A DNA stretch of 58,612 nt from Candidatus Woesearchaeota archaeon (GTDB lineage: Archaea > Nanobdellota > Nanobdellia > Pacearchaeales > GW2011-AR1). The notes under the pieces are model-generated. The model made no database searches, had not been told where the DNA came from, and saw only the letters and a program-made list of their open reading frames with translations. The stretch is from the NCBI GenBank assembly GCA_964530945.1, contig CAZHCJ010000003.1, positions 1 to 58,612 of the forward strand. The letters run 5' to 3'. Position numbers and translations under genes: made by a program. Positions 12,335-55,505 of the stretch are shown here, in pieces. Each line of letters opens with the position of its first letter. The first letter of the stretch is position 1.

Positions 12335-13750
12335 ATGGAGATTAAGAAAATTTCAGAGAATGTTTATGAAATTGCTAAAACTGGAAAGATGTTAGTGCCA
12401 GTTCGAATTTTCGCTTCGGAAAAAATCCTCGAGAAAATAAAGGAAGATAAAACGTTGCAGCAGGCTAAAAACATGGCAATGATAGAAGGTTCCGTTCAAC
12501 ATGTAGTGGTTCTCCCGGACGCCCACCAAGGTTATGGGGCGTGTATAGGAGGGGTTTCTGCCTTTGATACAGAAAAAGGAGTTATAAGCCCCGGTCAGGT
12601 AGGATATGATATTAATTGTTCCGTGAGGCTTTTGAAAACAAATCTGACCTTAGAAAATGTCAAAAGCAACGAAAAAGAAATATCTAATGAATTGTTCAAT
12701 GCTGTGCCCTCTGGCGTTGGGAAGGGAGGTTTGAAGAAACTTTCTGAAGAAGAGTTAGATGGGATATTAGAGGAAGGTGCCCAATGGTTAGTTAAAAATG
12801 GCTTTGGGAAAAAAGAGGATTATCTTTTCACAGAAAATCAAGGGAAATTAGAAGGGGCTAAAATAGAATATGTTTCCCCGCGTGCAAAAGCTCGTGGACG
12901 TAAACAGCTTGGAACTCTTGGGGCAGGAAATCATTTCTTGGAAATTCAGCAAGTGGAAAAAATATTTGATGAAAAAGCTGCAAAAGTTCTTGGTTTGAAG
13001 GAAGGAGATATTACAGTAATGATTCATTGCGGTTCTCGAGGTCTTGGACATCAGACAGCAACCGATTATATTAAAGAAATGGAAAGAAAATACGGCTGGA
13101 GTCATTTACCTGATAGACAATTAATTTGTGCTCCAATTAAAAGTGAATTGGGTCAAAAATACTTTGGTGCTATGGCGGCCGCTGCTAATTTTGGTTTTGC
13201 TAATAAGCAACTAATAACACATAAAATTAGAGAATTTTTAAAAAAAATTCTTCCCGATTTTGAAGCTAAAGTAGTGTATGACATTTGTCACAATATAGCC
13301 AAATTTGAAACACATAAAATTAATGGTGAAGAAAGAGAACTTTTAATAGTTCGAAAAGGCGCAACAAGAAGTTTTGGCCCTGGAAGAAAAGAGGTACCCA
13401 AGAAATATAGGGAGATAGGTCAGCCAATATTTATTCCTGGGAGTATGGGGACGGCATCTTATGTTTTGTTGGGCACTAAAAAGGCCGAAGAAGTTTCATT
13501 GGCTTCCACTGCTCATGGTGCAGGAAGACTTCTTTCAAGAAGTTATGCTAAGAAAAATCTTTCACTAGACAATGTAAAAAAAGATTTGGAAAAAAAAGGG
13601 ATTGCGATAAAGACCGATTCTGTGAAAGGAATCTTGGAAGAAGCACCTCAGGCATATAAGGACGTCGACGAAGTTGTTAAGGTCTCCCATGATGCAGGAA
13701 TAGGAAAAATGGTTGCTAAACTAAAACCATTAATTGTCATCAAAGGATAG
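12335..13750 (+). CDS. rtcB: RNA-splicing ligase RtcB
   Basis: PDAHQGYG, GYDINC, GAGNHF, HCGSRGLGHQ, AHGAGR motifs. 471 aa. No intein. Confidence 0.95.
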   Translation: MEIKKISENVYEIAKTGKMLVPVRIFASEKILEKIKEDKTLQQAKNMAMIEGSVQHVVVLPDAHQGYGACIGGVSAFDTEKGVISPGQVGYDINCSVRLLKTNLTLENVKSNEKEISNELFNAVPSGVGKGGLKKLSEEELDGILEEGAQWLVKNGFGKKEDYLFTENQGKLEGAKIEYVSPRAKARGRKQLGTLGAGNHFLEIQQVEKIFDEKAAKVLGLKEGDITVMIHCGSRGLGHQTATDYIKEMERKYGWSHLPDRQLICAPIKSELGQKYFGAMAAAANFGFANKQLITHKIREFLKKILPDFEAKVVYDICHNIAKFETHKINGEERELLIVRKGATRSFGPGRKEVPKKYREIGQPIFIPGSMGTASYVLLGTKKAEEVSLASTAHGAGRLLSRSYAKKNLSLDNVKKDLEKKGIAIKTDSVKGILEEAPQAYKDVDEVVKVSHDAGIGKMVAKLKPLIVIKG

Positions 13751-14847
13751 GTTTTTGTATCTTGAGCTTTTTTTTAAGTAACTCTTCTCTCAGAGTGTCA
13801 TAAATATGATTGAAGATCTCTCGATTACCTTCGCAAAATAGCGTCTTACCTTCAATGTGCCCATGAGTAATATATGAATCAAAAGCACACCCCGAATTGC
13901 AATATTCTTTTATGTTACATTCTTCCCTTTGGCAAATGCTTCTTCTACTATTTATTTTCCTTCTTAAAGCATGATTATTTATCTCTTCTACTGAATCTTC
14001 AAAGACATTTCCTAATCTAAATTCTCCTATTGCAATAAATCTTCCACAAGGATAAAAATCTCCTTGAGTAGACACTCCAATAAATCCCTCCTGACAGTGT
14101 CCTGAATAGTTACATCCTTTCATTCTCTCCGTGAAAAAGGCTTTCATAATTTCTCTAAAAGGAGATATTTTTGTTTTTGAAGAATCGTGATTATACCATT
14201 TATCAAACAAAAAATCATTGCTTTAGAATATTCCTCAGGAGTTATTGCCAAATGGCTATTTTCCAATGCCCTTCCAGTCTCTATAAGAGGATTTATCTTA
14301 AAGTTTATTTCTTCTTCGTGAAAAAAATCATAAATCTCCTCTAAATAAGAGATATTTGTTTTGTTTAGAACAAGAACCGCTCCTCCGCCTATGCCTCTTT
14401 CTTTTGCTAGCATAATTGCATCATAAATCCTATCAAAACTTCTCTTGCCACTTAAAAACTTCCTGGTTAAATCATTGTACTCTTTAGTTCCGTCTAAGCT
14501 AAAACTCACTCTAAAATCATTTTCTTTAAAAAATCTGCAAAAGATTCTCTGAATAAAATCCCATTTGTTTGAACACTGTTTCTTATCTTGAACTCTGAGA
14601 ATTCTTTCTAGAAATTAACAACCCCTCTATAAAAAGGGAGACCGGGTATAAGAGGTTCTCCCCCATGCCAAATAAAATGAGATTTTATTTCGCCATTATA
14701 TTCAACAACTCTTTCTATACCTTTTTTGGCAACATCAATTTCCATATTACTTTTGATGTGAAAACCCTCCATAGAACAATAAGAACAAGCAAGATTACAA
14801 CTATCACTTACCCTCATAATGGCAGTCAAACCTTGTTGATCAACCAT
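13740..14847 (-). pseudogene. Radical SAM / SPASM-domain maturase (AslB-like), disrupted
   Basis: Three ORF pieces are colinear with one enzyme: CNLACSYC cluster (14608..14847), SLDG...core (14144..14509) and a Cys-rich SPASM tail (13740..14210). There is an in-frame TAG at 14608..14610. Two frameshifts lie in homopolymer runs near 14520 and 14209..14214. Confidence 0.8.
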
Positions 14848-18102: not shown

Positions 18103-18131
18103 ACACGTTTACATAATTTGTTTAAGAAAAA

Positions 18132-21100
18132 ATGGGTTTTGAAAAAAGAGGGTTGGCAAAAGCAACAACAATATTTGTTCTTGCCATAGTTTTCGCGTCC
18201 GTATTACTAGTAAGTTTAAATTTTGTTTCTCCTGCTCTTGACAGCTCTGATGAGGACGTTGCAGAATGTAATGACGGGATAGATAATGATAACAATGGGT
18301 GTTATGATTATCCTCTTGACCCTGGGTGTAGTAGTTCAAGTGATACTTCTGAATCTGGTGGCACATGTCCTGTATGTAGTAACGATGTCGACGATGATTC
18401 CGATGGATTAATAGATTATCCTAATGACCCTGGATGTAGTGGATGGAGCGATAATGATGAATACAATCCTCCTTGCGGAGATAATATATGTAATGGAGAT
18501 GAAACTTGTAACACCTGTCCTGGAGATTGTGGAAGCTGTGAAAGCCCTCCTGGTTGCGGAAATGGAATATTAGAAGAGAATATAGGTGAAGAATGTGATG
18601 AGGGGGATGAGAATGATGATGGAGGTAGTTGTACTCTTGATTGTAAATTAACATATTGCGGAGATGGAGTACTTCAAACCATAAATGGAGAAGGGATTCG
18701 TGAGCAGTGTGATGATGGGAATACTAATGATGGAGATGGTTGTGATTCTAATTGTCAGTTAGAAGATGCTGAAAGCAAACCAGAGTGTGCTGATGGAATA
18801 GATAACGATGGAGATGGGGATGTCGATCTAAATGACGGAGGGTGTAGTGGCTCCACCGATAACGATGAAACGAATTGTGGAGATGGGGAATGTGAAGGTG
18901 GAGAAAACACCAATTCGTGTCCAACAGATTGTGAAAATCCTGAAACAGAAAACAACCCTCCTCAATTATACCTCAATCTTGACACTAATCCTCCTATATA
19001 TGTAAATGAGGGAGATTATTATAGTGGTGATTTCAATGCTTATGACCCCGATGGAGATACTCTTAGTTATAGTTGGGTCAATAAACCTAGCTGGATAGGA
19101 TGGACAGACAAGAATAAAGGACAGTATGGTGGAACTGCCCCTAGCGTTACTCAAGATACGGAATATCTCGTAAAAGTAAAGGTTTCTGATGGCAATGGGG
19201 GAGAGGATACTGGCCAGTATGATTTAATAGTTGTGGACACAGATGTTCCTAATTCTCGCCCAAACATACAAGAGATAAATGACCACACAAGAGATGAAGG
19301 TAGTTATAGTTACAGTCTTGCAGTTACTGATAATGATGATGGGGACGTAGAAGGTATAACTCTCTCTTGGGATGATAATCCATATGGATTAAGCATCAAA
19401 GATGAAGGATATGATATTAATGACAATCTCCATTATTTTAAATTGGAAGGCACCATTAGCGTTAATTCGGATCAAACCAAATCTGTCCAAATTAGAGCTA
19501 GTGATGGGAAAGATATTGATACAGAAAAATTTGATTTAACTATTAGGAATGTAGACTCATGTACCCCTACAGAAAGCCCTGAAAGCAGTTGTTTTGATGG
19601 AACAGATAATGATTGTGATGAGGCGGCAGATTGTGCAGATAGTGATTGTCAAGGAGGTTCAGAAAATAATTGTGGAGATGGGAAAGATAATGATTGTGAT
19701 GGATTGATTGATGATGCAGACTCTGATTGTGATGAGGGGCTTTTCTGTGGAGATGGAGTTTGCAATAATGGTGAGACTTGTGACACTTGTTCTAAAGATT
19801 GCGGGACATGTGATCCACCAGAAACCGAGCTTTTCTGTGGAGATGGAGTTTGCAATAATGGTGAGACTTGTGACACTTGTTCTAAAGATTGCGGGACATG
19901 TGATCCACCAGAAACCGAGACTTGCCCAGACGGAGTTTGTTATAAAGAAAATCATGATACATGTTCCCAAGATTGTGTCTCAGGAACATATTGTGGAGAT
20001 GGAGAACGTCAAGCTGCGAATCATGGAGGAAATGATCAAGGTCAAAATGAGCAATGTGATGACGGTAATTGGGTTGATGGAGATGGATGTGACTCTTATT
20101 GTAAGGTAGAAGATTGCTACCGTTGTGGTGGGGATTCTAGCGACCCTGATTATTGTGTTTATGATGAGGCAAAATGTAGTGATGGAGGTGACGATTCTTC
20201 TCCTCAAATAACTTCTTCACTTGATACTTCAAATAATGAAAATTGGGCATATGAAAATTATTATTGGGAATATGATGTTCAGTCAACAGGGGGTGGAATA
20301 ACATACACGATGCAATCTGAATGGACCTGGATAAGCATAGATTCTGGCAGTGGTTTGATTTCAGGGACTGCTCCTGAGGTTAGTGGGCACAGTAACAAAG
20401 AGGTCATGGTTACCGCGACAAACTCGTTGGGAAGCGATACTCAAACTTTCAATTTAATTGTAAGAAATGAAGAACCGGAGGACAATGGGACGACTTCTTG
20501 TACTCCTAGTTCAACTCCTTTCATTAGCGACCCTGGAACGCATCGTGTTAACGAATTAGAATGGTATTATTATGATATAAGCCAAGACACCAGTGGAGGA
20601 TGTATTACTTATAGTCTAACCCAAATTCCTGATTGGAGTAGCAGAGGAGGAATAGACCCTACAATTGATTCAACCGATGGAGCAATTACTGGAAAAGCGA
20701 AAGAGGTTAGTGGGCATAGTAGTGATTACATAAACATTACCGCGACAAATGACTTAGGTTCTTATGAGAGGCAATACAGAATTGTTGTGAGAAATGTTGA
20801 AGAAGGTGAAACGAGCTATGCTTGTAGTGATGGAGAGGATAACGATGGAGATGGTTTAATTGACTATCCCAATGACCCTGGATGCACTAGTGAAACAGAT
20901 AATGACGAGTTTAATGTTGGAACGGAAGGAACTGCTTGCGATTTAACAGATGCATACTGGAGTCTTGATGGTAGCAGCGAATTGGTTGAAAATGACAACC
21001 CAGTCTTGAACCAACAAAATGTGTATCTTGTTGTTGAAGGCACCACAGAATGTAATGGAGAAAGTATTAACTTCGACATTTATGAGGATGACACTGTAGG

Positions 21101-21776
21101 AGATGATTATATCTCTAGTGTTGGTGGGACGTTTGAATCTGGAAGTTTGGCAGTAGTATGGCAAACACAGCATGTAGATGATTCTGGATACCCTGAATAT
21201 TACTTCAATGCAGAAGTCGTGGGAAGTGACCCATTGGAAGAAATCAATAGCCAAGACCAAGGAAGTGTTTTATTAGAAGTGGACGAGAGAACAATGAGCC
21301 AGTGGTGTGTTGACAATTCAATAAACATTTGCTCTGCATACTCTACAGAAGAACAATGTGAAAATGATGCCGAATGGTGTAATGTTGCAAGCAATTCAAA
21401 CAATATAGATTATGACCCTGATGCAGATGATTATGAGTGTGAATGGAGTTCTACTGAAAGCACTTGTGAATTCGTAAACATTTATGATGGAACAGGCACA
21501 GGAGGAGATGGCTCTGTTGGAAGATGTATATATCATTACGAAGATACGGGAGATACGTGTGACGATGACGGTTTCTTAGATGTTACATATACGACAACAT
21601 GGGAAAGTTCAGAAGGAGACCCACGTCCAAGTAGTTGCCCTGTGAGTGGGGGAGAATCTTACGAGTGTCCAGCACAAATACCCTTACCCTTCTTCAATAT
21701 GATTAATTTCATAATAGCAGGATTGCTTATAGCGTTGGTTTATTTAGGAAGAGATTTAATTGAGCACCGAAGATAA
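18132..21776 (+). CDS. Giant Cys/Asp-rich surface protein (1214 aa) with metal-binding-type C-x-DG-x-DND repeats, Myxococcus-type Cys-rich repeats, cadherin/He_PIG-like Ig domains and a C-terminal TM anchor
   Basis: N-terminal TM/signal. At least six CxDGxDNDxDGxxDxxDxxC units (e.g. CADGIDNDGDGDVDLNDGGC). CDDGNTNDGDGCDSNC repeats. DPDGDTLSYSW Ig-like modules. C-terminal FIIAGLLIALVYLG. Confidence 0.85.
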   Translation: MGFEKRGLAKATTIFVLAIVFASVLLVSLNFVSPALDSSDEDVAECNDGIDNDNNGCYDYPLDPGCSSSSDTSESGGTCPVCSNDVDDDSDGLIDYPNDPGCSGWSDNDEYNPPCGDNICNGDETCNTCPGDCGSCESPPGCGNGILEENIGEECDEGDENDDGGSCTLDCKLTYCGDGVLQTINGEGIREQCDDGNTNDGDGCDSNCQLEDAESKPECADGIDNDGDGDVDLNDGGCSGSTDNDETNCGDGECEGGENTNSCPTDCENPETENNPPQLYLNLDTNPPIYVNEGDYYSGDFNAYDPDGDTLSYSWVNKPSWIGWTDKNKGQYGGTAPSVTQDTEYLVKVKVSDGNGGEDTGQYDLIVVDTDVPNSRPNIQEINDHTRDEGSYSYSLAVTDNDDGDVEGITLSWDDNPYGLSIKDEGYDINDNLHYFKLEGTISVNSDQTKSVQIRASDGKDIDTEKFDLTIRNVDSCTPTESPESSCFDGTDNDCDEAADCADSDCQGGSENNCGDGKDNDCDGLIDDADSDCDEGLFCGDGVCNNGETCDTCSKDCGTCDPPETELFCGDGVCNNGETCDTCSKDCGTCDPPETETCPDGVCYKENHDTCSQDCVSGTYCGDGERQAANHGGNDQGQNEQCDDGNWVDGDGCDSYCKVEDCYRCGGDSSDPDYCVYDEAKCSDGGDDSSPQITSSLDTSNNENWAYENYYWEYDVQSTGGGITYTMQSEWTWISIDSGSGLISGTAPEVSGHSNKEVMVTATNSLGSDTQTFNLIVRNEEPEDNGTTSCTPSSTPFISDPGTHRVNELEWYYYDISQDTSGGCITYSLTQIPDWSSRGGIDPTIDSTDGAITGKAKEVSGHSSDYINITATNDLGSYERQYRIVVRNVEEGETSYACSDGEDNDGDGLIDYPNDPGCTSETDNDEFNVGTEGTACDLTDAYWSLDGSSELVENDNPVLNQQNVYLVVEGTTECNGESINFDIYEDDTVGDDYISSVGGTFESGSLAVVWQTQHVDDSGYPEYYFNAEVVGSDPLEEINSQDQGSVLLEVDERTMSQWCVDNSINICSAYSTEEQCENDAEWCNVASNSNNIDYDPDADDYECEWSSTESTCEFVNIYDGTGTGGDGSVGRCIYHYEDTGDTCDDDGFLDVTYTTTWESSEGDPRPSSCPVSGGESYECPAQIPLPFFNMINFIIAGLLIALVYLGRDLIEHRR
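19740..19919 (+). repeat. Perfect 2 x 90-bp in-frame tandem repeat inside the giant surface protein gene
   Basis: Units 19740..19829 and 19830..19919 are identical. Each encodes LFCGDGVCNNGETCDTCSKDCGTCDPPETE. Confidence 0.97.
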
Positions 21777-21791
21777 ATCCGGATAAACAAA

Positions 21792-21799
21792 TTTATAAA
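21792..21799 (+). promoter_or_regulatory. TATA box (TTTATAAA) about 36 nt upstream of the 21835 ATG
   Basis: Motif and spacing. Confidence 0.45.
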
Positions 21800-21834
21800 C
21801 TTATTTTTCTTTTAACATCTATTAGGTTTAAAAG

Positions 21835-24444
21835 ATGGTGGAAAAGAGATGCTTAGTTTTTGCGTTGTTATTAATTTTTAGCGTTAGCTTTGTTTTAGCA
21901 GGATTTGAGATAGATGAGCTAAATCCTTATAGTATAAAAGCGCTTTATGGGCAAAATACCAATATTGAAGGATGGGTAAAAATACAACTAAATGAAGAGC
22001 CTTCCGGATCTTTATTCAGTGATTCTTTTGACAATAATATCAGCCTTGAAAAAGTATTAGAAAGTAATTCTCAATATGAATACACTTGTTCAACCCCTGA
22101 ATGTTCAGATAAATATGTTTCAAGCAATGCTCAAAATACAAAAACATTTTCCCAAGAAGGAGATGTTTTTATAGGATTAAAATTAACCGGAGATGTTGAA
22201 GATGTAGATTCAGTAAGTTTTGATATTTCAAGCAATTCAGGAGCTTCTTGTGGAGATAGTCAATTAATAATAGATATTTTGGATGATGGAGCGATAGAGA
22301 TAATGAATAATCAATCTACTGGGAGTCTTTGCTTATCAACTAAAAATTATGGTTGTTTTAACACTGATTTGCCTAGTGAAGAATGGATTATAAATGATGA
22401 TAAAAATGCTTATTGTGAAAAGATTAATTTGAGCTCTGCCCCTAGTGTGAGTGCTGGGGCGTGGATTAAAAATCAATCAGGAGTTGGAAGTATTGGTGTG
22501 GAACTTTTCAATTCTGAATGGAGTTCAGAAGGATTCTGTAACCTTGCTACAAGCTCTAGTTCGGGAGAAGAAGTCTCTTGTAGCATAGATGCTTTTATTG
22601 AGCAGCCAGGAGAGTATTATGCATGTGTTTTTTCAGATTCATCAAATAACAGCTATAGGATTCAGGGATATAGTTCGGGTGATGACGAATACTGTGGATA
22701 TTATGGTGTTGAAAATCCTGTAAGTGCTAATTATAGAATATTTGTTGTGGAGGAAGAATTTGCACCATTCGGAAGTCAAACTATTAGTAACAATTTCGAA
22801 GGAAATGTCCTTTCTCAAATTGTGGAAGATTACATAAAAGAACGTTATGGTAGCGGCATGGAGTGTGGAACCGAAGGATGCATAGTTCCAATAAAAGCAA
22901 GCTCTTCAGTTTCTCAAAGCTTTTCATTCTCAAATCTTGATTTAACATACACTAGAAAAACCGGAAGTCCAATAGACAACAACTTTTGGGACATATCTAA
23001 AACATCGCCCGAAATAAGCTCTGTGTCTCAACGTCTTTACCTCGATTCATCAGGTTTTAAAGTGCCTAACGAGACGGGAGACTACGACTATTCTTTAAGT
23101 TTAAATGGAGAAGAAATCATCTCTAATGAAAACATAAGCATTAAAGATGCCCCCATAATTAATTCATTAACTCCTTTGATGACGGCGGCTCCTGTTCCTA
23201 CAACATTCAAAGTTGAGGCAAGTGAGGCTTCAGAAAATATAACTAGTTATGAATGGGATTTTGGAGACGATTCAAACAACATCATCACCGAAGAAAACAC
23301 TGTTAGTCATGTTTATTCTTCAGTAGGAAGCTACAACCTCACCTTGAAAGTCGAGGATTCTAGAGGCATCAGCTCATCCAAAACATTTTCAATAGATGTG
23401 GGCCTTCCAGACACATTCATAAACACCGAATTAAATAGATTAAATTTTACTATTGGTAAATTAGAAGAAGATATCTCTCAACTTACACCTTTCCAAAAAC
23501 AAGGAATTAAAACAATATTAGATTTGGATGGTGTAAAATCTCAAATTAATATTCTTCGAGAACAATATGAAAGTGTTGAAAACGATTCGGAATATATTGA
23601 GATTGCAAGTTCTCTTATTGAATTAGGGCTGCCCAATCAAATAATACAAACAAAATCATCAAGTGATTTCATCTTCTTTCCAAAAACAAGCAATGTTAAT
23701 TTGAATGCCATAGAAAGCGCTCACGGGAGTAGTGTTTCGGTCTCAAACGAAGAAGCGTATAGAGATGCAGTAGTTGCATGGCAACAGAACAATTTAATCA
23801 CGAGCATGGGTTTTACAGGGTTTTCGAGCGAGACTAATGGCGATGTGGAACATCTTGTAGACTTTTTTGAGATAGAAGTAAGTGAAAAAACAGCTGTAAG
23901 TTACCCTTATTATTTCATTATCCAAAATCTTGAAAATCTTCAACTGCAAGGAAGTTCAGGGGATGCTGGAAATTATAAATACCAAGATTTAAGAGAGAAT
24001 CAAAGAGTTTCGTTCTATACCACAGAAAACGTTGAATTCACCAATCTGCCCGCATTTATCTCTCCTTCGCTCTCAAGGCTAAATGTGAATGAAGATTTAA
24101 TTGGAGAACATGAAGAGCCTCAAACAACGCTTTGGACGGTTATTGCTTTAATTATTTTATTAATTGTTGCAGGATTTGCATACATCTTTATGAAAGAGTG
24201 GTACAAGCGCAAATACGAAGGCACTTTGTTCAAAGATAGAAATGATTTATACAATATGGTTAATTATGTAAATAATGCAAAAAAGAAAGGTTTGAACGAT
24301 ACAGAAATTCGTAAAAATCTTAAAAAAGCGGGTTGGAATAATGAACGTATAAGATACGTTATGAAAAAGTATGGAGGAAAGAACACTGGAATATTGGAAA
24401 TTCCTGTAGATAAATTAGTGGACAAATTTGGAAAGAAAAAATAA
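21835..24444 (+). CDS. Surface protein with a PKD domain, a C-terminal TM anchor and a Lys-rich cytoplasmic tail
   Basis: Signal peptide LLLIFSVSFVLAG. PKD signature YEWDFGDDS...VSHVYSSVGSYNLTLKVEDSRG. TM helix LWTVIALIILLIVAGFAYIF. Confidence 0.8.
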   Translation: MVEKRCLVFALLLIFSVSFVLAGFEIDELNPYSIKALYGQNTNIEGWVKIQLNEEPSGSLFSDSFDNNISLEKVLESNSQYEYTCSTPECSDKYVSSNAQNTKTFSQEGDVFIGLKLTGDVEDVDSVSFDISSNSGASCGDSQLIIDILDDGAIEIMNNQSTGSLCLSTKNYGCFNTDLPSEEWIINDDKNAYCEKINLSSAPSVSAGAWIKNQSGVGSIGVELFNSEWSSEGFCNLATSSSSGEEVSCSIDAFIEQPGEYYACVFSDSSNNSYRIQGYSSGDDEYCGYYGVENPVSANYRIFVVEEEFAPFGSQTISNNFEGNVLSQIVEDYIKERYGSGMECGTEGCIVPIKASSSVSQSFSFSNLDLTYTRKTGSPIDNNFWDISKTSPEISSVSQRLYLDSSGFKVPNETGDYDYSLSLNGEEIISNENISIKDAPIINSLTPLMTAAPVPTTFKVEASEASENITSYEWDFGDDSNNIITEENTVSHVYSSVGSYNLTLKVEDSRGISSSKTFSIDVGLPDTFINTELNRLNFTIGKLEEDISQLTPFQKQGIKTILDLDGVKSQINILREQYESVENDSEYIEIASSLIELGLPNQIIQTKSSSDFIFFPKTSNVNLNAIESAHGSSVSVSNEEAYRDAVVAWQQNNLITSMGFTGFSSETNGDVEHLVDFFEIEVSEKTAVSYPYYFIIQNLENLQLQGSSGDAGNYKYQDLRENQRVSFYTTENVEFTNLPAFISPSLSRLNVNEDLIGEHEEPQTTLWTVIALIILLIVAGFAYIFMKEWYKRKYEGTLFKDRNDLYNMVNYVNNAKKKGLNDTEIRKNLKKAGWNNERIRYVMKKYGGKNTGILEIPVDKLVDKFGKKK

Positions 24445-32570: not shown

Positions 32571-32768
32571 CTATTTTATCTTTAGTCGAGGTTTAATTAT
32601 GTAGAGGATTATTATTCCCGTTGCTAAAGAAATCAAAGAGCTTACGAGATAATTATCCTGAAAGAGATATATGTCCATAATCCCCCAAGCGCCTCGCCAA
32701 AAAGCTACTGCAGCCAAAGCAAGCATAAGCGTTAAGAATAAGTTTTTGTGAATCTCTTTTTTATCCAT
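32571..32768 (-). CDS. Small two-TM membrane protein
   Basis: 65-aa ORF with hydrophobic segments. Confidence 0.4.
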   Translation of the reverse strand: MDKKEIHKNLFLTLMLALAAVAFWRGAWGIMDIYLFQDNYLVSSLISLATGIIILYIIKPRLKIK

Positions 32769-33056: not shown

Positions 33057-33116
33057 ACAAAACTTATTTATTTCAGAATTTAAAAACAGAATTTTAATAA
33101 ACCTAGCCAGCTGAGT

Positions 33117-33197
33117 CATTCGACCATTGCCATTAGAATTCTCAAGCCGGCCAATGCCCGAATTCCAATTCGGGCTGTTGAGATAAGCCTGAGACAG
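33117..33197 (-). repeat. DGR-like template repeat (TR), non-coding
   Basis: 81 nt, 70/81 identical to 33438..33518. Adenine-rich with six AAY triplets. Lies 181 nt downstream of the target gene stop. Confidence 0.8.
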
Positions 33198-33377
33198 CAA
33201 CTTTATAGCCAATTTACCAATTACCACCATAACTTCAATTTTCACAAATAATAGATATAAACGCTACTAATTGTCGCTATTGAATTTTACTAAATAAACT
33301 AGCGTGTGACCCAGCTCTTCACTTATTCAATCATAAGTGTTGGCTAGGAATATTGGAAAGAAAAAAGAATTTAAAAA

Positions 33378-35096
33378 TTATTCTTTGTCAGAAAAGGAAA
33401 AATTCTCGCGAACCTGCGAAGCAGGTTCCACAACAACCACCCGACCATAGCCACTAGAATACTCAAGCCGGCCAATGCCGGAAAACCAATTCGGGCAGCT
33501 GAGATAAGCCCGAGACAGCCCTTCATCTCTTGCAAAATCCCATCTAAAATGATTTATATCAATAATATCCTTTTGTGTCGCCTTACCGGGATTTAACCTT
33601 AATACAAGTCCACCATAGTTTAAACTATGTTTTTCTAAAGAAAGCGCATTAAAACTAATTAATTTTCCTCCATTGGATTCAACATCAAAACCATAATGTG
33701 TCATATCATCATATAAAATTTCTGTAATCAATTTATTTTCTTCTCTTGAATCTTGACGTGTTCTTAAAGCAACCCCCACATCTACATAATTTAAAAGAAA
33801 TCTTAATCTTTTTAAGGATATTTCTTCTAAATCTTGACGTGTTGCAGACCTATAACCCATTTCTTTTAGAACTTTACTTGCGAGAGTTCCTGAAAAAGTA
33901 TTTCCTCCCTGAATAACTCCTCTAAAAGGATTTAATGAAACTCTACTAAAATTTAAAACATCTAAAACTTTAGGGTTTCCAAGCTTACTTGATTCTTCCT
34001 TATATCTTTCTAAAAATTCTTCTCCAAATTCTCCTTTAAGCCTTCTTTTAGATATGGCTTGAGTGTTTGGCTTTAAAATAAGTGGTCCTGCTCTTTCAAG
34101 TTTGGAAACAGGGTAATCTGTTTCTCCACTAATTTCATCTGTAGGAGTCAACGCGGTTTCTTTTGTTTCTGCAGTAGTCAAATAACCTGCTTCCCTTGCT
34201 TGAGAAATCACAGCATCACCCTCGCGGGCTTCTAATCCCATTCCAAGATGCCTATCTAAAGCTTCGAGTGCTTCTTGCGCTGTTTGGTATCTGTTGTCTG
34301 GATCTGATGTCAAAGTATGTAAATAATCTCTCAATTCTTTTGAATAATGAAGTTTACTGGTATCTACTTGTTCCAATCCTCCTTTTCCTTGTTCATATCT
34401 AATGGCCCCAATTTTCTTGGCTAGTGCGCCAGAAACAACCACATTACCTAATGCAACTAAATCTTGGCTAGGATTTTGGTCTACCCCGGAAAATATATCC
34501 ATAGGATAGTAAAAAGCTCTTAATTCAGTATGGGAGGTTCCTTTATTCATATTAACCACATCAAAATCTGAGAGATAGGCGTTTTCTCCGTTAACAAAAA
34601 TATTTCCTGGTTTTATATCTCTGTGAGCCTGAACTATATTGTGTAAATGACTTAAGGCAGAAATATCATCTCTAAGAATCATCTTTGCTTCATCTTCAGA
34701 AAGCGTTCTTCCACGCTTCATCAGCTGTTCTACTGTTTCAGCATCAAGGTATTGCATTGCAGTAAAATACGCAGCCCAGTCTTCTTCTGTTGTTATATCA
34801 AAACCTTCTATGTAAGAAGGAATATTCGGATGATTTCCTGCTTGCTCAAGAACATTCCTCTCTCTTTGGACAAAGTTGAGAATTTTATCAGCATTTGCCC
34901 CATCAAATCTGTCAAGTAAACCATAAGAAGCTATTTTCAATGCAACGGGATTGTCTTCTCTATAGGCAAGCCAAACAGTAGAACCCGAAGGGCCGTGAGA
35001 TCCAGATTCAGACAATTGTCTGTCTAGAGTATAACCTCTTTCAGACAAAGGTTCTCTCATTCTTTCCAATACAGGAGGAAGTTTTGTTTCAGCCAT
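33378..35096 (-). CDS. Ser/Thr protein kinase fused to a C-terminal ~250-aa ligand-binding-type domain that carries the VR (putative DGR variable protein)
   Basis: Kinase motifs VALKIA (Lys), HRDIKPGNIF (catalytic loop), LSDFD (DFG-like). Start set at the ATG at 35096, 1 nt after the RHH gene stop. The C-terminal ...RAYLSCPNWFSGIGRL... resembles the ending of FGE/C-type-lectin-fold DGR targets (recall). Confidence 0.85.
   Translation of the reverse strand: MAETKLPPVLERMREPLSERGYTLDRQLSESGSHGPSGSTVWLAYREDNPVALKIASYGLLDRFDGANADKILNFVQRERNVLEQAGNHPNIPSYIEGFDITTEEDWAAYFTAMQYLDAETVEQLMKRGRTLSEDEAKMILRDDISALSHLHNIVQAHRDIKPGNIFVNGENAYLSDFDVVNMNKGTSHTELRAFYYPMDIFSGVDQNPSQDLVALGNVVVSGALAKKIGAIRYEQGKGGLEQVDTSKLHYSKELRDYLHTLTSDPDNRYQTAQEALEALDRHLGMGLEAREGDAVISQAREAGYLTTAETKETALTPTDEISGETDYPVSKLERAGPLILKPNTQAISKRRLKGEFGEEFLERYKEESSKLGNPKVLDVLNFSRVSLNPFRGVIQGGNTFSGTLASKVLKEMGYRSATRQDLEEISLKRLRFLLNYVDVGVALRTRQDSREENKLITEILYDDMTHYGFDVESNGGKLISFNALSLEKHSLNYGGLVLRLNPGKATQKDIIDINHFRWDFARDEGLSRAYLSCPNWFSGIGRLEYSSGYGRVVVVEPASQVRENFSFSDKE
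33410..33428 (-). other. GC-rich hairpin (8-bp stem GAACCTGC/GCAGGTTC, 3-nt loop) 9 nt 3' of the variable repeat
   Basis: Perfect palindrome read directly from the sequence. Absent at the equivalent position next to the TR. Confidence 0.7.
33438..33518 (-). repeat. DGR-like variable repeat (VR), inside the 3' end of the kinase fusion gene
   Basis: Encodes LSRAYLSCPNWFSGIGRLEYSSGYGRV. Differs from the TR at 11 positions, 10 of them TR adenines. Confidence 0.8.
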
Positions 35097-35097
35097 T

Positions 35098-35244
35098 TTA
35101 CTCGCCCCCTCCATCATTATTTAACGCTTCATTTAGTATAAACTCAATAGCGTGAGACCTGTTTCTGTATTTTTTACTTTTCAGAGCTTCCTCTACAAGT
35201 TCAAGGGTTTCTTTTTCAAGAGTTAAACTTACTCTTTGTTTCAT
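35098..35244 (-). CDS. Ribbon-helix-helix (CopG/Arc-like) DNA-binding protein, 48 aa
   Basis: Hand translation MKQRVSLTLEKETLELVEEALKSKKYRNRSHAIEFILNEALNNDGGGE gives a beta strand plus two helices. Not in the ORF track (shorter than 60 aa). Confidence 0.6.
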   Translation of the reverse strand: MKQRVSLTLEKETLELVEEALKSKKYRNRSHAIEFILNEALNNDGGGE

Positions 35245-51996: not shown

Positions 51997-52014
51997 TCAA
52001 GCTTAAAGAAAAGG

Positions 52015-52389
52015 CTACTTCACAAATTCTACATTTGCCATGTCTTTAAATTCTTTATCTCCCGTAAGGAATTTCACTCCATTTTTCTTTGCCAATATAT
52101 ATCCTATGCAATCTACATGAGATACCTTTCTTTTTTTGTGCAATAGTTTGAATTTATTGGCTTCTTTTATGACTTCGTCACTTATTTTTATACAAAAAGG
52201 TTTGAATCTTTCGTATGCCTTTTCTGCAATTTTTCCTCCATAAACCCTAAGCAAGTTATAATGTAACTCTATTAAATTAAGATTAGTGGTAATTATCCCT
52301 GACTTTAAATAATTCTTATAATTTTTATTCTTATGAATTATTTCGAAAAACGCATATGTATCAAAAAAATATTCTTTTACTTCTCCCAT
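52015..52389 (-). CDS. vapC: PIN-domain toxin VapC
   Basis: YFFDTYAFFEI start, later ...HVDCIGYILAKK... and FLTGDKEF. 124 aa. Confidence 0.8.
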   Translation of the reverse strand: MGEVKEYFFDTYAFFEIIHKNKNYKNYLKSGIITTNLNLIELHYNLLRVYGGKIAEKAYERFKPFCIKISDEVIKEANKFKLLHKKRKVSHVDCIGYILAKKNGVKFLTGDKEFKDMANVEFVK

Positions 52390-52592
52390 TCTTCTCTAGA
52401 TAAATTTTTCATTTTTTGACCTGAGAGTTTCCTGTTTTTGACTAATCCAAAAATATCTGATAAATCTGCCTTTTTTATTACGCGAATTAAAATCTCTTTA
52501 TTTTCTTCTATATTCTCTTTTTCAACAAATTCTTTAGGCAAAACAATTCCTATAGAATTTCCCCATTTTTTTGGCTTTACTGAAGTTATCAT
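52377..52592 (-). CDS. AbrB/MazE (SpoVT)-type antitoxin
   Basis: KKWGNSIGIVLPKEFVE swapped-hairpin motif. Overlaps the PIN gene start. Confidence 0.75.
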   Translation of the reverse strand: MITSVKPKKWGNSIGIVLPKEFVEKENIEENKEILIRVIKKADLSDIFGLVKNRKLSGQKMKNLSREEWEK

Positions 52593-52701
52593 TTTAGTTA
52601 TATTTCTATTATACTCAAATATAATTAATTTATAAGCTTTTCTAATTGATTTCTCAAATCTTAAAAAACAAAGAAAATTAAAATTTTCTAGCCTTCCAAA
52701 A

Positions 52702-53148
52702 TTAGTTAATTTTGAAAAACAACCAACTCTTTTCTGGTTTATTTCCGTAACTGGTTTTTATCAAGACATACTTCCCTTGGAGTTTTTTTCCTTTTAGATT
52801 AAATTCAATTTTCTTTCCAAGTAAATCTTTGTTATTTTTTGATTTACTGGCACCAAAAATCTTTGATTTTTTAGTGTTACTTTTTTCTAACAATTCATAT
52901 GTTCCTTTGTCCCAAATTTCAACCTTTCCGGCTCCGTAACTCCCTTCGGGAATTGTTCCTTCAAACGTTGCGTAACCTAAGTCGTGGTCTTGTACTTGAA
53001 TGGCTAAACGCTTCGTCCCTTTCTTTTTTGGAGGTTGCTTTGGAATGGCCCAACTTTTCAAAACTCCGTCCATTTCCAAACGAAAATCATAGTGGAGATT
53101 TGTTGCGTCGTGTTTTTGTATTACGAAAATTGGCTCTTTGTTTGTCAT
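52702..53148 (-). CDS. Stand-alone LigD-type 3'-phosphoesterase (PE) domain protein
   Basis: FVIQKHDATNLHYDFRLEMDGVLKSWAIPKQPP is the LigD N-terminal PE-domain signature. 148 aa. Confidence 0.85.
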   Translation of the reverse strand: MTNKEPIFVIQKHDATNLHYDFRLEMDGVLKSWAIPKQPPKKKGTKRLAIQVQDHDLGYATFEGTIPEGSYGAGKVEIWDKGTYELLEKSNTKKSKIFGASKSKNNKDLLGKKIEFNLKGKKLQGKYVLIKTSYGNKPEKSWLFFKIN

Positions 53149-53149
53149 T

Positions 53150-53566
53150 TTAATTATTTTTTAAAAATCCTTTAACACTTTTTATAAAACTTTTCACATC
53201 GAGAATTATCTCGTCTTTAATTGAATCAAAAACAAATTCGTCATTTACTTTCCCGTATTCATGTGCAATTATATTTCTCATACCCTTTGCCTCTTGAAGT
53301 TTCTCTTTCAAATTTTCAGATATGATTTTTTCATCAAATAATATGTCAAAAGCTTGTTTTTCTTCTTCAGGTGTTTTAAGCCTAAATCTTTTAATTAAAA
53401 TAAATGCTAAATCTATGACTGCAGTAATTATTCTTTCAAAATATCTTTCACACGCAGCTTTAAGTTTAAAGTCATGCTTGTATTCCTCAAAATCTGAAGG
53501 AATTATTTCGGAAAGCTCCTGCAAATAATCTTCTAATTCTTCAATTTTGTCTTTTATTCTATTCAT
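53150..53566 (-). CDS. hepT: HEPN-domain toxin HepT (DUF86)
   Basis: Rx4HxY motif in GMRNIIAHEYGKV. 138 aa. Confidence 0.85.
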   Translation of the reverse strand: MNRIKDKIEELEDYLQELSEIIPSDFEEYKHDFKLKAACERYFERIITAVIDLAFILIKRFRLKTPEEEKQAFDILFDEKIISENLKEKLQEAKGMRNIIAHEYGKVNDEFVFDSIKDEIILDVKSFIKSVKGFLKNN

Positions 53567-54074
53567 TTTTCCATATAACCTTTCCTTTGTTTTTAACTTC
53601 TCTTTTTACCTTTTTAGGAAGAACATTGAAAACTTTCACATCTACACTATCCGGAAGTTTTCCCAATACATTTTTCCTGAAGCTGAAAGCTTTTTTCTCA
53701 CTTATTTTTGAAAATTCCACTGCTATGTCTATGTCTGATTTTAAAGTAGGCTTCTTTTCAACAACTGAACCAAATAAGATTATTCTTTCCATCTTATTCT
53801 CCAAAGGATGTTCTAAAATAATTTCTTTTATTTCCTGAATCAAAGAATTTACTGAACTTGCTTTTTTTAAATCGAACATATCTGAAAATTTTGATGCTTC
53901 TTCAATAAATTGAAACTTCTTTCTTATATCTCTTGAAAGCCTATTTTTTTCAGACTGAGTTAAAGGAATTCCTCTAAGCTGTTTTTCTATTATTTTTAGC
54001 TCACGTTTTCCAAATATTTTTCTCGCTTTTTCATTATTTTTAAGAAACTTAATAAATTTCATTATAACCTCCAT
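53559..54074 (-). CDS. mntA: MNT-type nucleotidyltransferase antitoxin with an N-terminal extension
   Basis: LFGSVVEKKPTLKSDIDIAV (GSx10SDxD). 8-nt overlap with hepT. Confidence 0.8.
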   Translation of the reverse strand: MEVIMKFIKFLKNNEKARKIFGKRELKIIEKQLRGIPLTQSEKNRLSRDIRKKFQFIEEASKFSDMFDLKKASSVNSLIQEIKEIILEHPLENKMERIILFGSVVEKKPTLKSDIDIAVEFSKISEKKAFSFRKNVLGKLPDSVDVKVFNVLPKKVKREVKNKGKVIWKNE

Positions 54075-54121
54075 TATGGTTATAATAACCTAAATAATGG
54101 TTATTTATATATCTTTCTAAA

Positions 54122-54307
54122 TTATTCTTTTTCTTTAACCAATTCTCTCAAATCTGCTCTTTTCAAAACTCTGTGAAATTCTTCCACATTTTCCACAGGC
54201 ATGAACATCTCACCATTAAGATAGGTATATAATTTATTTGGATCAAAAGGAGTTTCTTCTCCTTTCCTTAATTCATACTTGTCTCCATTGAGATAATGTT
54301 CTTCCAT
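54122..54307 (-). CDS. Hypothetical small protein
   Basis: 61-aa ORF only. Confidence 0.3.
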   Translation of the reverse strand: MEEHYLNGDKYELRKGEETPFDPNKLYTYLNGEMFMPVENVEEFHRVLKRADLRELVKEKE

Positions 54308-54342
54308 TAAAATTTATAAACATTCAAACATATTTAATATTA

Positions 54343-55017
54343 ATGGATTTGAAAAACAAAAAAGTCTTGATTACTGGCGCGAGCAAAGGTATTGGTCAGG
54401 CGACAGCAGTAGAATTTGCCAAGCACAATGTTGAACTTATTTTAACCTATAGGGGTGATAAAAAAGGCGCGCAGAAAACTGTAGAAGCATGCAAAAAGTT
54501 GGATAAAGAAATTAGTATTAAAACATTTAAGCTTGATGTTTCTAAAGAAAGTTTGAGAAAAAGTTTGAGAAAAAAAGTGAAGAATATTAATGTGCTTGTT
54601 AACAACGCAGGCGTTATTGCTTGGAAAGAATTTGATAAACACAAAAAATCTGAAATCGACAGCCAGATAGATGTCAATTTAAAAGGGTTGATTAAAATGA
54701 CTCATGAATTCCAAGACGACATTGAAAAAAACAAAGGTATGATTATCAATGTTTCAAGCGGAGCAGGGAAAAATGCTTATCGTGAGTTGAGTGTTTATTG
54801 TGCAACAAAGTACGGCGTTCGTGGTTTTACACAAGCTTTGGATAAAGAGCTTTCTCGTGGCCAAGCAGTTAGTGTGAATCCTGCAACAACAAAAACTCAA
54901 ATGACCAACTTCAAAGGAATGCCGCCGGAAAGAGTTGCTGAAGTGATTGTTAAAACTGCACTGGGAAAAATCAAACCCGATTCAAAAAGAGATGTGGATG
55001 TTTGGAAATTTGTTTGA
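54343..55017 (+). CDS. Short-chain dehydrogenase/reductase (SDR)
   Basis: TGASKGIGQA cofactor motif, NNAG, catalytic YCATKYG. Confidence 0.85.
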   Translation: MDLKNKKVLITGASKGIGQATAVEFAKHNVELILTYRGDKKGAQKTVEACKKLDKEISIKTFKLDVSKESLRKSLRKKVKNINVLVNNAGVIAWKEFDKHKKSEIDSQIDVNLKGLIKMTHEFQDDIEKNKGMIINVSSGAGKNAYRELSVYCATKYGVRGFTQALDKELSRGQAVSVNPATTKTQMTNFKGMPPERVAEVIVKTALGKIKPDSKRDVDVWKFV

Positions 55018-55278: not shown

Positions 55279-55279
55279 T

Positions 55280-55501: not shown

Positions 55502-55505
55502 ATTA

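What the first reader, a model, noticed from the sequence alone, without database searches (positions are those of the whole stretch)
33117..33518. DGR-type template/variable repeat pair: 10 of 11 mismatches fall on template adenines
There are two 81-nt direct repeats on the minus strand, 321 nt apart. The copy at 33438..33518 sits inside the kinase-fusion gene, 19 codons before its stop, and encodes LSRAYLSCPNWFSGIGRLEYSSGYGRV. The copy at 33117..33197 lies 181 nt past the stop in otherwise non-coding DNA and would read LSQAYLNSPNWNSGIGRLENSNGNGRM. Coding-strand alignment follows. Downstream copy: CTG TCT CAG GCT TAT CTC AAC AGC CCG AAT TGG AAT TCG GGC ATT GGC CGG CTT GAG AAT TCT AAT GGC AAT GGT CGA ATG. 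Genic copy: CTG TCT CGG GCT TAT CTC AGC TGC CCG AAT TGG TTT TCC GGC ATT GGC CGG CTT GAG TAT TCT AGT GGC TAT GGT CGG GTG. Identity is 70/81. Ten of the 11 differences are at A in the downstream copy (10 of its 19 adenines become G or T). One difference is G to C. Five of six AAY (Asn) triplets are altered. Adenine-specific divergence between an invariant A-rich template and a C-terminal coding repeat is the hallmark of mutagenic retrohoming by diversity-generating retroelements. DGRs have been reported in DPANN archaea, but this one targets a kinase fusion protein.
Basis: partly seen in the sequence, partly recalled or inferred. Interest (0 to 1): 0.93.

Follow-up and report, generated by a model that had tools for sequence, protein, structure and literature searches.

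The report
DGR template cassette lacking its reverse transcriptase
The repeat pair is a real template/variable pair of a diversity-generating retroelement family from tiny DPANN archaea; it rewrites the tip of a protein kinase, but this copy has no reverse transcriptase on its contig and must borrow one or be a recent fossil.

Summary
TR 33117-33198(-) and VR 33438-33519(-) are 82 nt long, and 10 of 11 mismatches fall on TR adenines (p=5e-7).

It is not a one-off. The DNA between VR and TR is the Rfam RT-16 RNA (80 bits). Probing public data with its 5' block gave about 65 DPANN loci. Their 45 unique TR/VR pairs have 57% of TR adenines mismatched, against about 1% of other bases. Most loci carry a DGR-type RT (GNLTSQ/YVDD) directly after the TR.

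The window has the other family parts: the VR at the gene's 3' end, the fixed IMH/IMH* mark, a GC-rich hairpin, a TATA-like box, RT-16, the TR and a conserved 3' block. It has no RT or RT remnant anywhere in the 58.6 kb.

The target is a Ser/Thr kinase fused to the family's variable domain. All five such fusions found form one clade, and none has an adjacent RT. In the four that keep a TR, each VR follows its own diverged TR. That argues for continued homing with an RT supplied in trans.

Kinase targets are already known in bacteria, and DGRs are known in DPANN. The verdict is a genuine DGR cassette and a modestly new variant. Current activity is untested.

The parts
33378..35117 (-). Target gene, 579 aa: an N-terminal Hanks-type Ser/Thr kinase fused to the C-terminal DGR variable domain. 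No predicted membrane segment.
   Evidence: ORF. Pfam Pkinase E=4e-15. Catalytic motifs VALK58, HRDIKPGN165 and DFD184 are present and are invariant among homologs. Maximum 19-residue hydropathy is 1.44, so no TM segment.
34428..34889 (-). Protein kinase domain (about aa 77-230, best Pfam stretch)
33396..34046 (-). Variable-protein domain (about aa 358-574). It is shared with ~260-aa standalone DGR target proteins of DPANN archaea and may be C-type-lectin-like.
   Evidence: Profile search: 368 representative clusters, window protein matched at residues 357-573, E=3.7e-32. AF2 model pTM 0.80. Foldseek against PDB gives nothing significant, but the weak top hits are nearly all C-type lectin domains.
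33438..33519 (-). Variable repeat (VR), encoding LSRAYLSCPNWFSGIGRLEYSSGYGRV
33438..33446 (-). IMH-like 3' end of the VR (GGTCGGGTG). The GGG here replaces the GAA of the TR.
   Evidence: The AA>GG difference is fixed across ~45 family pairs. An analogous IMH/IMH* pair was described for Nanoarchaeota DGRs (PMC4372165).
33410..33428 (-). Target-site hairpin, 9 nt 3' of the VR: GAACCTGC-TTC-GCAGGTTC (8-bp GC-rich stem, 3-nt loop)
   Evidence: DNA fold. A hairpin at the same place occurs across the family, with at least 18 different stems and a constant GAA (rarely GTA) loop. The window is the only one with TTC.
33369..33377 (-). TATA-like box (TTTTTAAAT) directly after the stop codon, about 20-30 nt upstream of RT-16. 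Putative promoter of the RT-16/TR RNA.
   Evidence: A conserved TAA-TTTAAAAA box lies at a fixed distance from TTCCTAGCC in ~55 loci. Promoter function is inferred.
33200..33348 (-). RT-16 RNA (Rfam RF03019), a structured non-coding RNA that ends immediately before the TR
   Evidence: cmscan 80.3 bits (gathering 50), E=7e-13, full model 1-158
33117..33198 (-). Template repeat (TR), non-coding, 19-20 adenines, six AAY triplets. It ends in the IMH*-like GGTCGAATG (33117-33125).
33102..33116 (-). Conserved 3' element after the TR (ACTCAGCTGGCTAGG). In complete elements the RT start codon follows ~15-25 nt later. GGCTAGG is complementary to the RT-16 5' end CCTAGCC.
   Evidence: Family alignment consensus GGCTCAG..GGCTAGG. 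Its function is unknown.

Best explanation
The pair is the template and variable repeat of a DGR belonging to the nanoarchaeal/DPANN DGR family whose template is preceded by the RT-16 RNA. This copy is an RT-less satellite cassette.

On the minus strand the order is: kinase/variable-domain gene carrying the VR, the IMH and a GC-rich hairpin; stop codon; TATA-like box; RT-16 RNA; TR ending in IMH*; a short conserved 3' element. Unrelated genes follow.

Proposed mechanism. (1) The RT-16/TR RNA is transcribed from its own promoter (inferred). (2) A family reverse transcriptase encoded elsewhere in the genome binds this RNA through RT-16 and/or the 3' element (inferred). (3) It copies the TR into cDNA and misincorporates opposite adenines. 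The sequence footprint shows this here and in 45 related pairs. (4) The cDNA replaces the VR, guided by the IMH and the hairpin (by analogy with BPP-1). The TR is protected by its IMH* variant.

The result is hypervariation of up to about 9 codons in the C-terminal, probably lectin-like, ligand-binding domain of a cytoplasmic Ser/Thr kinase. That would retune what the kinase senses or binds.
For: Shown:
- A-specific TR/VR divergence.
- Full-length RT-16 RNA between VR and TR.
- The RT-16 5' block retrieves ~65 DPANN loci. Their 45 unique TR/VR pairs have 673/1184 TR adenines mismatched, against 4/820 C, 8/953 G and 11/900 T.
- Most of these loci have a ~340-aa RVT_1 protein with the DGR motifs GMPLGNLTSQ and YVDD directly 3' of the TR.
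- The family is active: L009 and L057 differ at 13 VR sites, all opposite TR adenines, and at 1 site elsewhere in 915 nt.
- The fixed IMH/IMH* mark and the covarying hairpin are present in the window.

For the trans-RT part:
- No RT or remnant in 58.6 kb by motif scan, tblastn with 12 family RTs, or profile HMM (best E=0.09).
- All five kinase-fused members form one clade and none has an adjacent RT.
- L001, L002 and L076 share the synteny target, RT-16/TR, SMC.
- Among the four RT-less kinase loci the TRs differ at 7-18 non-A sites plus indels, and both VRs follow their own TR at 65 of 71 such sites. TR-to-VR transfer therefore continued after these lineages split.
- RT-16 scores in RT-less loci (70-106 bits) lie within the range of RT-bearing loci (50-113).
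- The TATA-like box and the target ORF are intact.
- In BPP-1, Avd, TR and RT work from a plasmid in trans (cited in PMC5758913).
Against: - No RT from the same genome could be identified. The window is the whole contig and its source is not on record.
- The window's target hairpin has a TTC loop where 42 of 43 family VRs have GAA or GTA. In BPP-1, replacing the GAAA loop with CTTT reduced homing to near background (PMC3240598).
- The window's TR has fewer adenines (19-20) than most of the family (21-31), and there is one non-A mismatch.
- Clearly decayed relatives exist: L002 with indels and a broken target gene; L015, L023, L052 and L069 with RT remnants. RT loss followed by decay does therefore happen in this family.
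- TR/VR co-evolution could also result from several independent, recent RT losses.
- No read-level data were available to test whether the VR is heterogeneous today.
Confidence: 0.6

Rival explanations
1. Recent fossil. The locus was once a complete DGR (or was served by one), the RT has been lost from the genome, and the TR, RT-16 and VR are now frozen and beginning to decay. The A-specific differences record past activity only.
For: - No RT on the contig.
- Atypical TTC hairpin loop, combined with the BPP-1 loop requirement (PMC3240598).
- Fewer TR adenines than in relatives and one non-A mismatch.
- Decayed family members exist (L002, L015, L052, L069).
- Paul et al. 2015 considered 'fossils' for partial nanoarchaeal DGRs (PMC4372165).
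Against: - RT-16 matches the full Rfam model with a normal score.
- The promoter-like box, the TR reading register (six AAY triplets) and the target ORF are intact.
- The whole kinase clade is RT-less, yet each VR tracks its own diverged TR, indels included. That is hard to reconcile with an old loss of all RT activity.
Confidence: 0.33
2. Not a retroelement product: an ordinary duplication or gene-conversion tract whose bias towards A sites arose by chance or by selection on the protein.
For: Only that no RT lies nearby.
Against: - p=5e-7 for the window alone and 4e-8 for the orthologous L001 pair.
- The same pattern appears in 45 pairs.
- An RT-associated structured RNA lies between the copies.
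- A DGR-type RT follows the TR in most relatives.
- The IMH/IMH* mark is fixed.
Confidence: 0.01
3. The RT-16/TR RNA is copied by a polymerase other than a DGR-family RT (a different RT class or a host enzyme), so the cassette is autonomous with respect to DGR RTs.
For: None directly. It remains possible only because no partner RT was identified, and because Avd-independent variants are already inferred for CPR/DPANN DGRs (PMC5758913).
Against: RT-16, the TR terminus and the 3' element are the same as in loci where a DGR-type RT is encoded immediately downstream. No other RT-like gene exists on the contig.
Confidence: 0.03

Closest known systems
Nanoarchaeota (DUSEL4) DGRs, Paul et al. 2015, Nat Commun (PMC4372165)
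   Same: - DPANN hosts, often with several DGRs per genome.
- Orphan ~260-aa target proteins.
- The hairpin lies inside the target gene and has a constrained GRA tri-loop.
- IMH (..GGG..) versus IMH* (..GAA..) at the repeat ends.
- Partial loci without an RT were noted and interpreted as fossils or remotely diversified sites.
   Different: - Their partial DGRs consisted only of target, VR and cis elements. Here the RT-less locus keeps its own TR plus the RT-16 RNA and a promoter-like box.
- Here the target is fused to a kinase.
- The window's hairpin loop is TTC, not GRA.
- The exact IMH words differ (CGGGTG/CGAATG against TGGGGT/TGGAAT).
- I did not compare sequences with the DUSEL4 elements directly.
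Bordetella phage BPP-1 DGR (prototype)
   Same: - TR-to-VR transfer with adenine mutagenesis.
- VR at the 3' end of the target gene.
- IMH/IMH*.
- GC-rich 8-bp hairpin a few nt after the VR (PMC3240598).
- Components can act in trans (PMC5758913).
   Different: - BPP-1 has avd and a ~140-nt structured spacer (Rfam RT-10, PMC5737381) between TR and RT. In this family the structured RNA (RT-16) lies 5' of the TR, the TR-to-RT spacer is only ~35-45 nt, and no avd is evident.
- The loop has 3 nt, not 4.
- The window has no RT.
[quoted passage not shown] 2020, PMC7517822); Pkinase-CLec targets in Thiohalocapsa PB-PSB1 (Dore et al. 2024, PMC10907252)
   Same: - N-terminal Hanks-type Ser/Thr kinase fused to a C-terminal DGR-diversified binding domain.
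- Many copies lie away from the RT locus.
- Incomplete loci are proposed to be diversified in trans.
   Different: - Those are bacterial, with recognisable FGE-sulfatase/CLec domains.
- Remote copies use the TR at the RT locus rather than a TR of their own.
[quoted passage not shown] Here a DPANN DGR cassette serves a kinase fusion.
RT-16 RNA motif (Rfam RF03019; RT-1 to RT-19 motifs of Weinberg et al. 2017, PMC5737381)
   Same: The window's 33200-33348 matches the complete model above the gathering score.
   Different: The paper's main text describes the RT motifs only as lying near RT genes and assigns only RT-10 to a DGR. Here RT-16 is placed precisely: between target stop codon and TR in a DPANN DGR family. 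It also persists at loci with no RT.
Remote DGR targets of Treponema, Legionella and Lineage 4 DGRs (Wu et al. 2018, PMC5758913)
   Same: One RT serves VRs far from its own locus (more than 100 kb away).
   Different: Remote targets there share the single TR next to the RT. Here the remote locus carries a private TR, so one RT would have to use several different template RNAs.

Membership tests
Diversity-generating retroelement (DGR) | Two near-identical repeats whose differences fall almost only on adenines of one copy (the TR) | tested here: met
   10 of 11 mismatches at TR adenines, p=4.8e-7. Family-wide, 57% of A are mismatched against ~1% of C, G and T.
Diversity-generating retroelement (DGR) | VR at the 3' end of a protein-coding target gene; TR outside coding sequence | tested here: met
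   The VR ends 19 codons before the stop of the 579-aa ORF. The TR lies in a gene-free gap, and its overlapping 76-aa ORF has no Pfam hit.
Diversity-generating retroelement (DGR) | A DGR-clade reverse transcriptase encoded in the element | tested here: not met
   No RT in 58,612 bp: YxDD scan, tblastn with 12 family RTs, profile HMM on all six frames with best E=0.09. The feature is met in most relatives. The window therefore holds a DGR cassette (TR, VR and RNA), not a complete DGR.
Diversity-generating retroelement (DGR) | IMH at the VR 3' end versus IMH* at the TR 3' end | tested here: met
   VR GGTCGGGTG against TR GGTCGAATG. The same AA/GG distinction is fixed across the family.
Diversity-generating retroelement (DGR) | GC-rich hairpin/cruciform just downstream of the VR with a conserved loop | tested here: inconclusive
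   An 8-bp GC-rich stem sits 9 nt after the VR, and the stem covaries across the family. The window's loop is TTC instead of the family's GAA/GTA, and loop sequence matters in BPP-1 (PMC3240598).
Diversity-generating retroelement (DGR) | Accessory protein (Avd or equivalent) | not tested
   Small ORFs around the TR have no Pfam hit. No ORF lies between TR and RT in relatives. No dedicated Avd profile search was run. 26% of DGRs lack avd (PMC5758913).
Diversity-generating retroelement (DGR) | Ongoing diversification: VR heterogeneous and TR invariant within populations | not testable with these tools
   No reads and no second copy of this contig. Shown for relatives L009/L057: 13 VR differences, all opposite TR adenines, and 1 in the TR.
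RT-16 RNA (Rfam RF03019) | Covariance-model score at or above the curated gathering threshold over the full model | tested here: met
   80.3 bits against 50, model positions 1-158 of 158, E=7e-13
Hanks-type (eukaryotic-like) Ser/Thr protein kinase | Pkinase domain with the catalytic Lys, HRDxKxxN loop and DFG-type Mg site | tested here: met
   Pfam PF00069 at 56 bits (cut-off 31.7). VALK58, HRDIKPGN165 and DFD184 are present. K60, D166, N171 and D183 are invariant in 19 homologs. Activity was not assayed.
C-type lectin-fold DGR variable protein | CLec fold with the VR forming the ligand-binding face | tested here: inconclusive
   AF2 pTM 0.80. The best Foldseek PDB hit has E=0.42 and TM 0.27/0.45. 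Most of the top 50 are C-type lectin domains, but none is significant. No Pfam FGE-sulfatase hit.

The most novel reading that the evidence does not exclude
A clade of DPANN archaea maintains RT-less satellite DGR cassettes. Each has its own promoter, RT-16 RNA and private template repeat, and each hypermutates the sensor domain of a cytoplasmic Ser/Thr kinase using a reverse transcriptase supplied in trans from another DGR locus. That would be a modular system with one RT and many templates, in which RT-16 is the portable handle that recruits the enzyme. It would extend DGR action in DPANN from orphan proteins to intracellular signalling.
Probability: 0.45. Interest if true: 0.7.

Novelty: new variant of a known kind. 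Interest (0 to 1): 0.55.

Why it matters
DGRs are the only known natural machines for targeted protein hypermutation in prokaryotes, and they are being developed as in vivo diversification tools.

If the RT-less cassettes are served in trans, three things follow. The RNA alone (RT-16 plus the TR and a ~15-nt 3' block) is sufficient to recruit a DGR RT. One RT can work with several unrelated templates. And a compact, portable template module exists that could be exploited experimentally.

Biologically it would show that ultra-small DPANN archaea diversify an intracellular signalling kinase as well as orphan ~260-aa proteins. That parallels the kinase-lectin sensors of multicellular bacteria.

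If the locus is instead a fossil, the family still gives a graded series from complete to decayed elements, useful for studying how DGRs die.

Tried and rejected
- A TR-derived degenerate pattern found nothing in genome contigs. The conserved RT-16 5' block worked instead.
- The window's target protein is not on record in the contig index, so the source sample, the bin and any partner RT could not be traced.
- Four bacterial hits of the shortened pattern (L050, L054, L059, L060) show no TR/VR pair and were treated as chance matches.
- I first read the 5' CCTAGCC and the post-TR GGCTAGG as a terminal helix enclosing the whole RNA. Rfam's curated model pairs CCUAGCC locally with GGCUGGG. Both blocks are almost invariant, so covariation cannot decide. 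It is kept only as a possible alternative pairing.
- Fold search gave no significant match, so the C-type lectin assignment remains a suggestion.
- L003 (standalone homolog P0123) shows no RT-16 or TR in the 260 nt available.
- The small ORFs next to the TR are not recognisable accessory genes.
- Paul et al. 2017 (PMC5436926), the main CPR/DPANN DGR survey, is not held. A full-text search for 'RT-16' found nothing. Prior description of RT-less TR cassettes there therefore cannot be excluded.
- One Rfam batch exceeded the size limit and was repeated in smaller form.
- My TR/VR scan scored A-mismatches leniently (-0.3 against -3). This favours A-biased pairs when defining pair boundaries. It cannot create a 57% versus ~1% contrast, and the exact-seed repeat finder recovered the window and L001 pairs independently.
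Full report
**1. The observation**

On the minus strand, 33117-33197 and 33438-33518 are direct repeats 321 nt apart. I recomputed 70/81 identity. Ten of the 11 mismatches fall on adenines of the downstream copy, which has 19 A in 81 nt (hypergeometric p=4.8e-7). A search with N at every TR adenine finds only these two sites in the window, against zero expected. The homology is 82 nt long: TR 33117-33198, VR 33438-33519.

**2. Local anatomy**

The VR lies 19 codons before the stop of a 579-aa ORF (33378-35117, minus strand).
- The N-terminal half is a Pkinase domain (E=4e-15). VALK, HRDIKPGN and DFD motifs are present and invariant among 19 homologs.
- There is no hydrophobic segment, so the protein is probably cytoplasmic. 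This is an inference.
- The C-terminal ~220 aa match no Pfam family.
- Nine nt after the VR lies an 8-bp GC-rich hairpin, GAACCTGC-TTC-GCAGGTTC.
- The neighbouring genes are ordinary archaeal housekeeping genes: FttA/aCPSF1 upstream and a presenilin-like signal-peptide peptidase downstream.
- The window is the entire contig.
- It contains no reverse transcriptase by three tests: a YxDD scan of long frames, tblastn with 12 family RTs at E<=10 (the only notable hits fall on the TR itself), and a profile HMM against all six frames (best E=0.09).

**3. A second, independent locus**

The closest full-length homolog is P0004 (38% identity, 578 aa, from a Woesearchaeota MAG). It has its own VR and its own TR in the gap after the gene, with 12 of 13 mismatches at TR adenines (p=4e-8). 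It also has no RT nearby: the next gene is SMC. The non-coding DNA flanking the two TRs shares conserved blocks.

**4. The RNA and the family**

The region between the stop codon and the TR (33200-33348, minus strand) is a full-length match to Rfam RF03019, the RT-16 RNA (80.3 bits, gathering score 50). The literature describes the RT-1 to RT-19 motifs only as lying near RT genes (PMC5737381).

Using the RT-16 5' block as an exact probe gave 45 metagenome loci and 25 genome loci. Almost all are from Woesearchaeota, Pacearchaeota or Nanoarchaeota. Four bacterial hits are chance matches.

In about 45 of these loci a TR lies 130-250 nt after the block and a VR lies upstream in the preceding gene. 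Over 45 unique pairs, 673 of 1184 TR adenines are mismatched, against 4/820 C, 8/953 G and 11/900 T. The spectrum is A>G 459, A>T 178, A>C 36.

Most loci encode a ~340-aa protein directly after the TR. It matches RVT_1 (E=2.6e-19) and carries the DGR hallmarks GMPLGNLTSQ and YVDD.

The family is active. L009 and L057 come from different samples and differ at 13 VR positions, all opposite TR adenines, and at only one other position in 915 nt.

**5. Cis elements shared by the window**

- The TR ends in CGAATGG and the VR in CGGGTGG in essentially every pair. This is the IMH*/IMH distinction described for Nanoarchaeota DGRs (PMC4372165). Two of the window's ten A-site changes are this fixed mark.
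- A hairpin follows nearly every VR at the same distance. There are at least 18 different stem sequences and a constant GAA (rarely GTA) loop. This matches the 'GRA tri-loop' of Paul et al. 2015 and the structure-dependent, sequence-independent stem of BPP-1 (PMC3240598). The window has the stem, but its loop is TTC, the complement of GAA. In BPP-1 the analogous change abolished homing.
- The target's stop codon is followed at a fixed distance by a TATA-like box, about 25-30 nt before RT-16. This suggests that RT-16/TR is its own transcription unit. The window has the box.
- After the TR comes a conserved GGCTCAG..GGCTAGG block. In complete elements the RT start codon follows it. The window keeps the block.

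**6. What is unusual here**

The variable domain belongs to a family of 368 representative clusters. Nearly all are standalone ~260-aa proteins without annotation. Only five of the best 150 are long proteins. All five are Pkinase fusions: the window's protein, P0004/L001, P0253/L013, P0275/L076 and P0246/L075. Their variable domains form one clade in a neighbour-joining tree.

None of the five has an adjacent RT. Four have RT-16 plus a TR. L075 has toxin-antitoxin genes directly after the stop. L001, L076 and the decayed L002 share the synteny target, RT-16/TR, SMC.

Among the four RT-less kinase loci the TRs have diverged at 7-18 positions where neither base is A, and by indels. At 65 of 71 such positions both VRs carry their own TR's base. 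TR-to-VR information flow therefore continued after these lineages separated. Since the whole clade lacks a cis RT, the parsimonious reading is that an RT encoded elsewhere does the work.

In agreement, RT-16 in the RT-less loci scores 70-106 bits, inside the 50-113 range of RT-bearing loci.

**7. What argues the other way**

- I could not find the partner RT, because the source of the window is not on record and the collection scans were exhausted.
- The window's hairpin loop is atypical.
- Its TR has somewhat fewer adenines than its relatives.
- The family includes clear wrecks: L002 with indels between TR and VR and a broken target gene, and L015, L023, L052 and L069 with RT fragments.

A recent fossil is therefore a serious rival.

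**8. The variable domain**

An AlphaFold2 model built on 37 sequences has pTM 0.80. Foldseek against the PDB finds nothing significant (best E=0.42). The weak hits are nearly all C-type lectin domains, the fold used by most DGR variable proteins. This is suggestive only.

**9. Comparison with what is known**

Already published:
- DGRs in DPANN and Nanoarchaeota, their GRA-loop hairpins and IMH variants, and partial loci (PMC4372165).
- Remote targets and trans action (PMC5758913, PMC10907252).
- Kinase-lectin targets in cyanobacteria and Thiohalocapsa (PMC7517822, PMC10907252).

Not found in the papers I could read:
- The placement of RT-16 as the RNA between the target gene and the TR of this family.
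- RT-less loci that keep a private TR, RT-16 and a promoter-like box, conserved across a clade.
- A kinase-fused target in DPANN. [quoted passage not shown]

The main CPR/DPANN survey (Paul et al. 2017) could not be read, so priority cannot be excluded.

**10. Verdict**

This is a genuine DGR template/variable pair (confidence about 0.97). It is a member of a known DPANN DGR family, present here as an RT-less cassette acting on a kinase fusion. I put dependence on a trans-encoded RT, now or until recently, at about 0.6, and a frozen fossil at about 0.33. Interest is moderate. The more interesting points are the RT-less template module and the repeat tract noticed in passing in the family's RT genes.

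Noticed in passing
Related loci L006, L010, L012, L027, L028, L030, L034, L040, L043, L047, L056, L057/L009, L061, L074 (RT genes): In about half of the RT-bearing loci the RT reading frame shifts at a simple-sequence tract, (GA)5-10 or G8-11. The tract always sits ~10-25 codons before the catalytic GMPLGNLTSQ motif. It is in frame in some RTs (L026 (GA)4, L041 (GA)5, L053 G10) and absent from others. The demonstrably active L009/L057 element has the out-of-frame form. This looks like a phase-variable or slippage-controlled switch on the mutator RT rather than decay. Assembly error at homopolymers is not excluded.
   Followed up: partly
L009 vs L057: Two near-identical DGR loci from different samples differ at 13 VR positions, all opposite TR adenines, plus a single T/C difference in the TR, over 915 nt. 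This is direct evidence of ongoing diversification in this family.
   Followed up: yes
L002 2200-4900; L015, L023, L052, L069; L005/L071, L062: The family shows a graded series of decay. L002 is syntenic with L001 and L076 but has a truncated target gene and indels between TR and VR. Other loci keep only RT fragments, or only the RT-16 5' block without a match at Rfam's gathering score.
   Followed up: partly
window 33102-33110 and 33342-33348 (minus strand); family alignment: The conserved post-TR block GGCTAGG is a perfect complement of the RT-16 5' end CCTAGCC, which Rfam pairs locally with GGCUGGG. A 5'-3' helix enclosing RT-16 plus the TR, as an alternative to stem P1, is possible. It cannot be tested by covariation because both blocks are almost invariant.
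   Followed up: partly
L041, L045, L061, L070: In these loci one TR matches two VRs in two different target genes (in L041 the second VR is 4.7 kb away). L045 also carries a second, divergent RT (YMDD, 36% identical to the family RT).
   Followed up: no
P0005-P0019 (homologs of the window's kinase): A set of ~520-600-aa DPANN-type kinases shares the window's N-terminal kinase and linker but carries an unrelated C-terminal domain in place of the DGR variable domain. The sensor end of this kinase family therefore appears to be modular.
   Followed up: no
L001 12129-12342: Two 93-nt direct repeats (94% identical, 121 nt apart) lie between the TR and the SMC gene. Nature unknown.
   Followed up: no
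window 3-1169 (+): The contig starts inside a type II/IV secretion-type ATPase (T2SSE) that is interrupted by an intein with a LAGLIDADG homing-endonuclease domain.
   Followed up: no
window 13743-14614 (-): A radical SAM/SPASM enzyme is split into two overlapping reading frames (Radical_SAM in 14147-14614, SPASM in 13743-14222). Probably a frameshift or a pseudogene.
   Followed up: no
window 18126-24441 (+): Two very large Cys/Asp-rich proteins (stop-to-stop frames of 1216 and 870 aa) with He_PIG/Ig and PKD domains lie in the only stretch of raised G+C (0.39-0.41, against 0.34 overall). They are likely surface proteins.
   Followed up: no
window 52000-58612: A low-G+C end of the contig (0.24-0.29) carries a stand-alone LigD 3'-phosphoesterase domain, an IS240-type DDE transposase and an Eco57I-type restriction-modification methylase. 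By eye on the translations, not scanned, it also holds PIN/AbrB-like and HepT/MNT-like toxin-antitoxin pairs. It looks like an acquired island.
   Followed up: no
window 32574-32768 (-): A 65-aa ORF between the TR and the presenilin-like peptidase gene hits Pfam 'Fuseless', an animal membrane-protein family, at E=7e-10. This is probably a compositional match to a hydrophobic peptide. Unexplained.
   Followed up: no
window 1-58612: ARAGORN finds no tRNA gene in the whole 58.6 kb.
   Followed up: no
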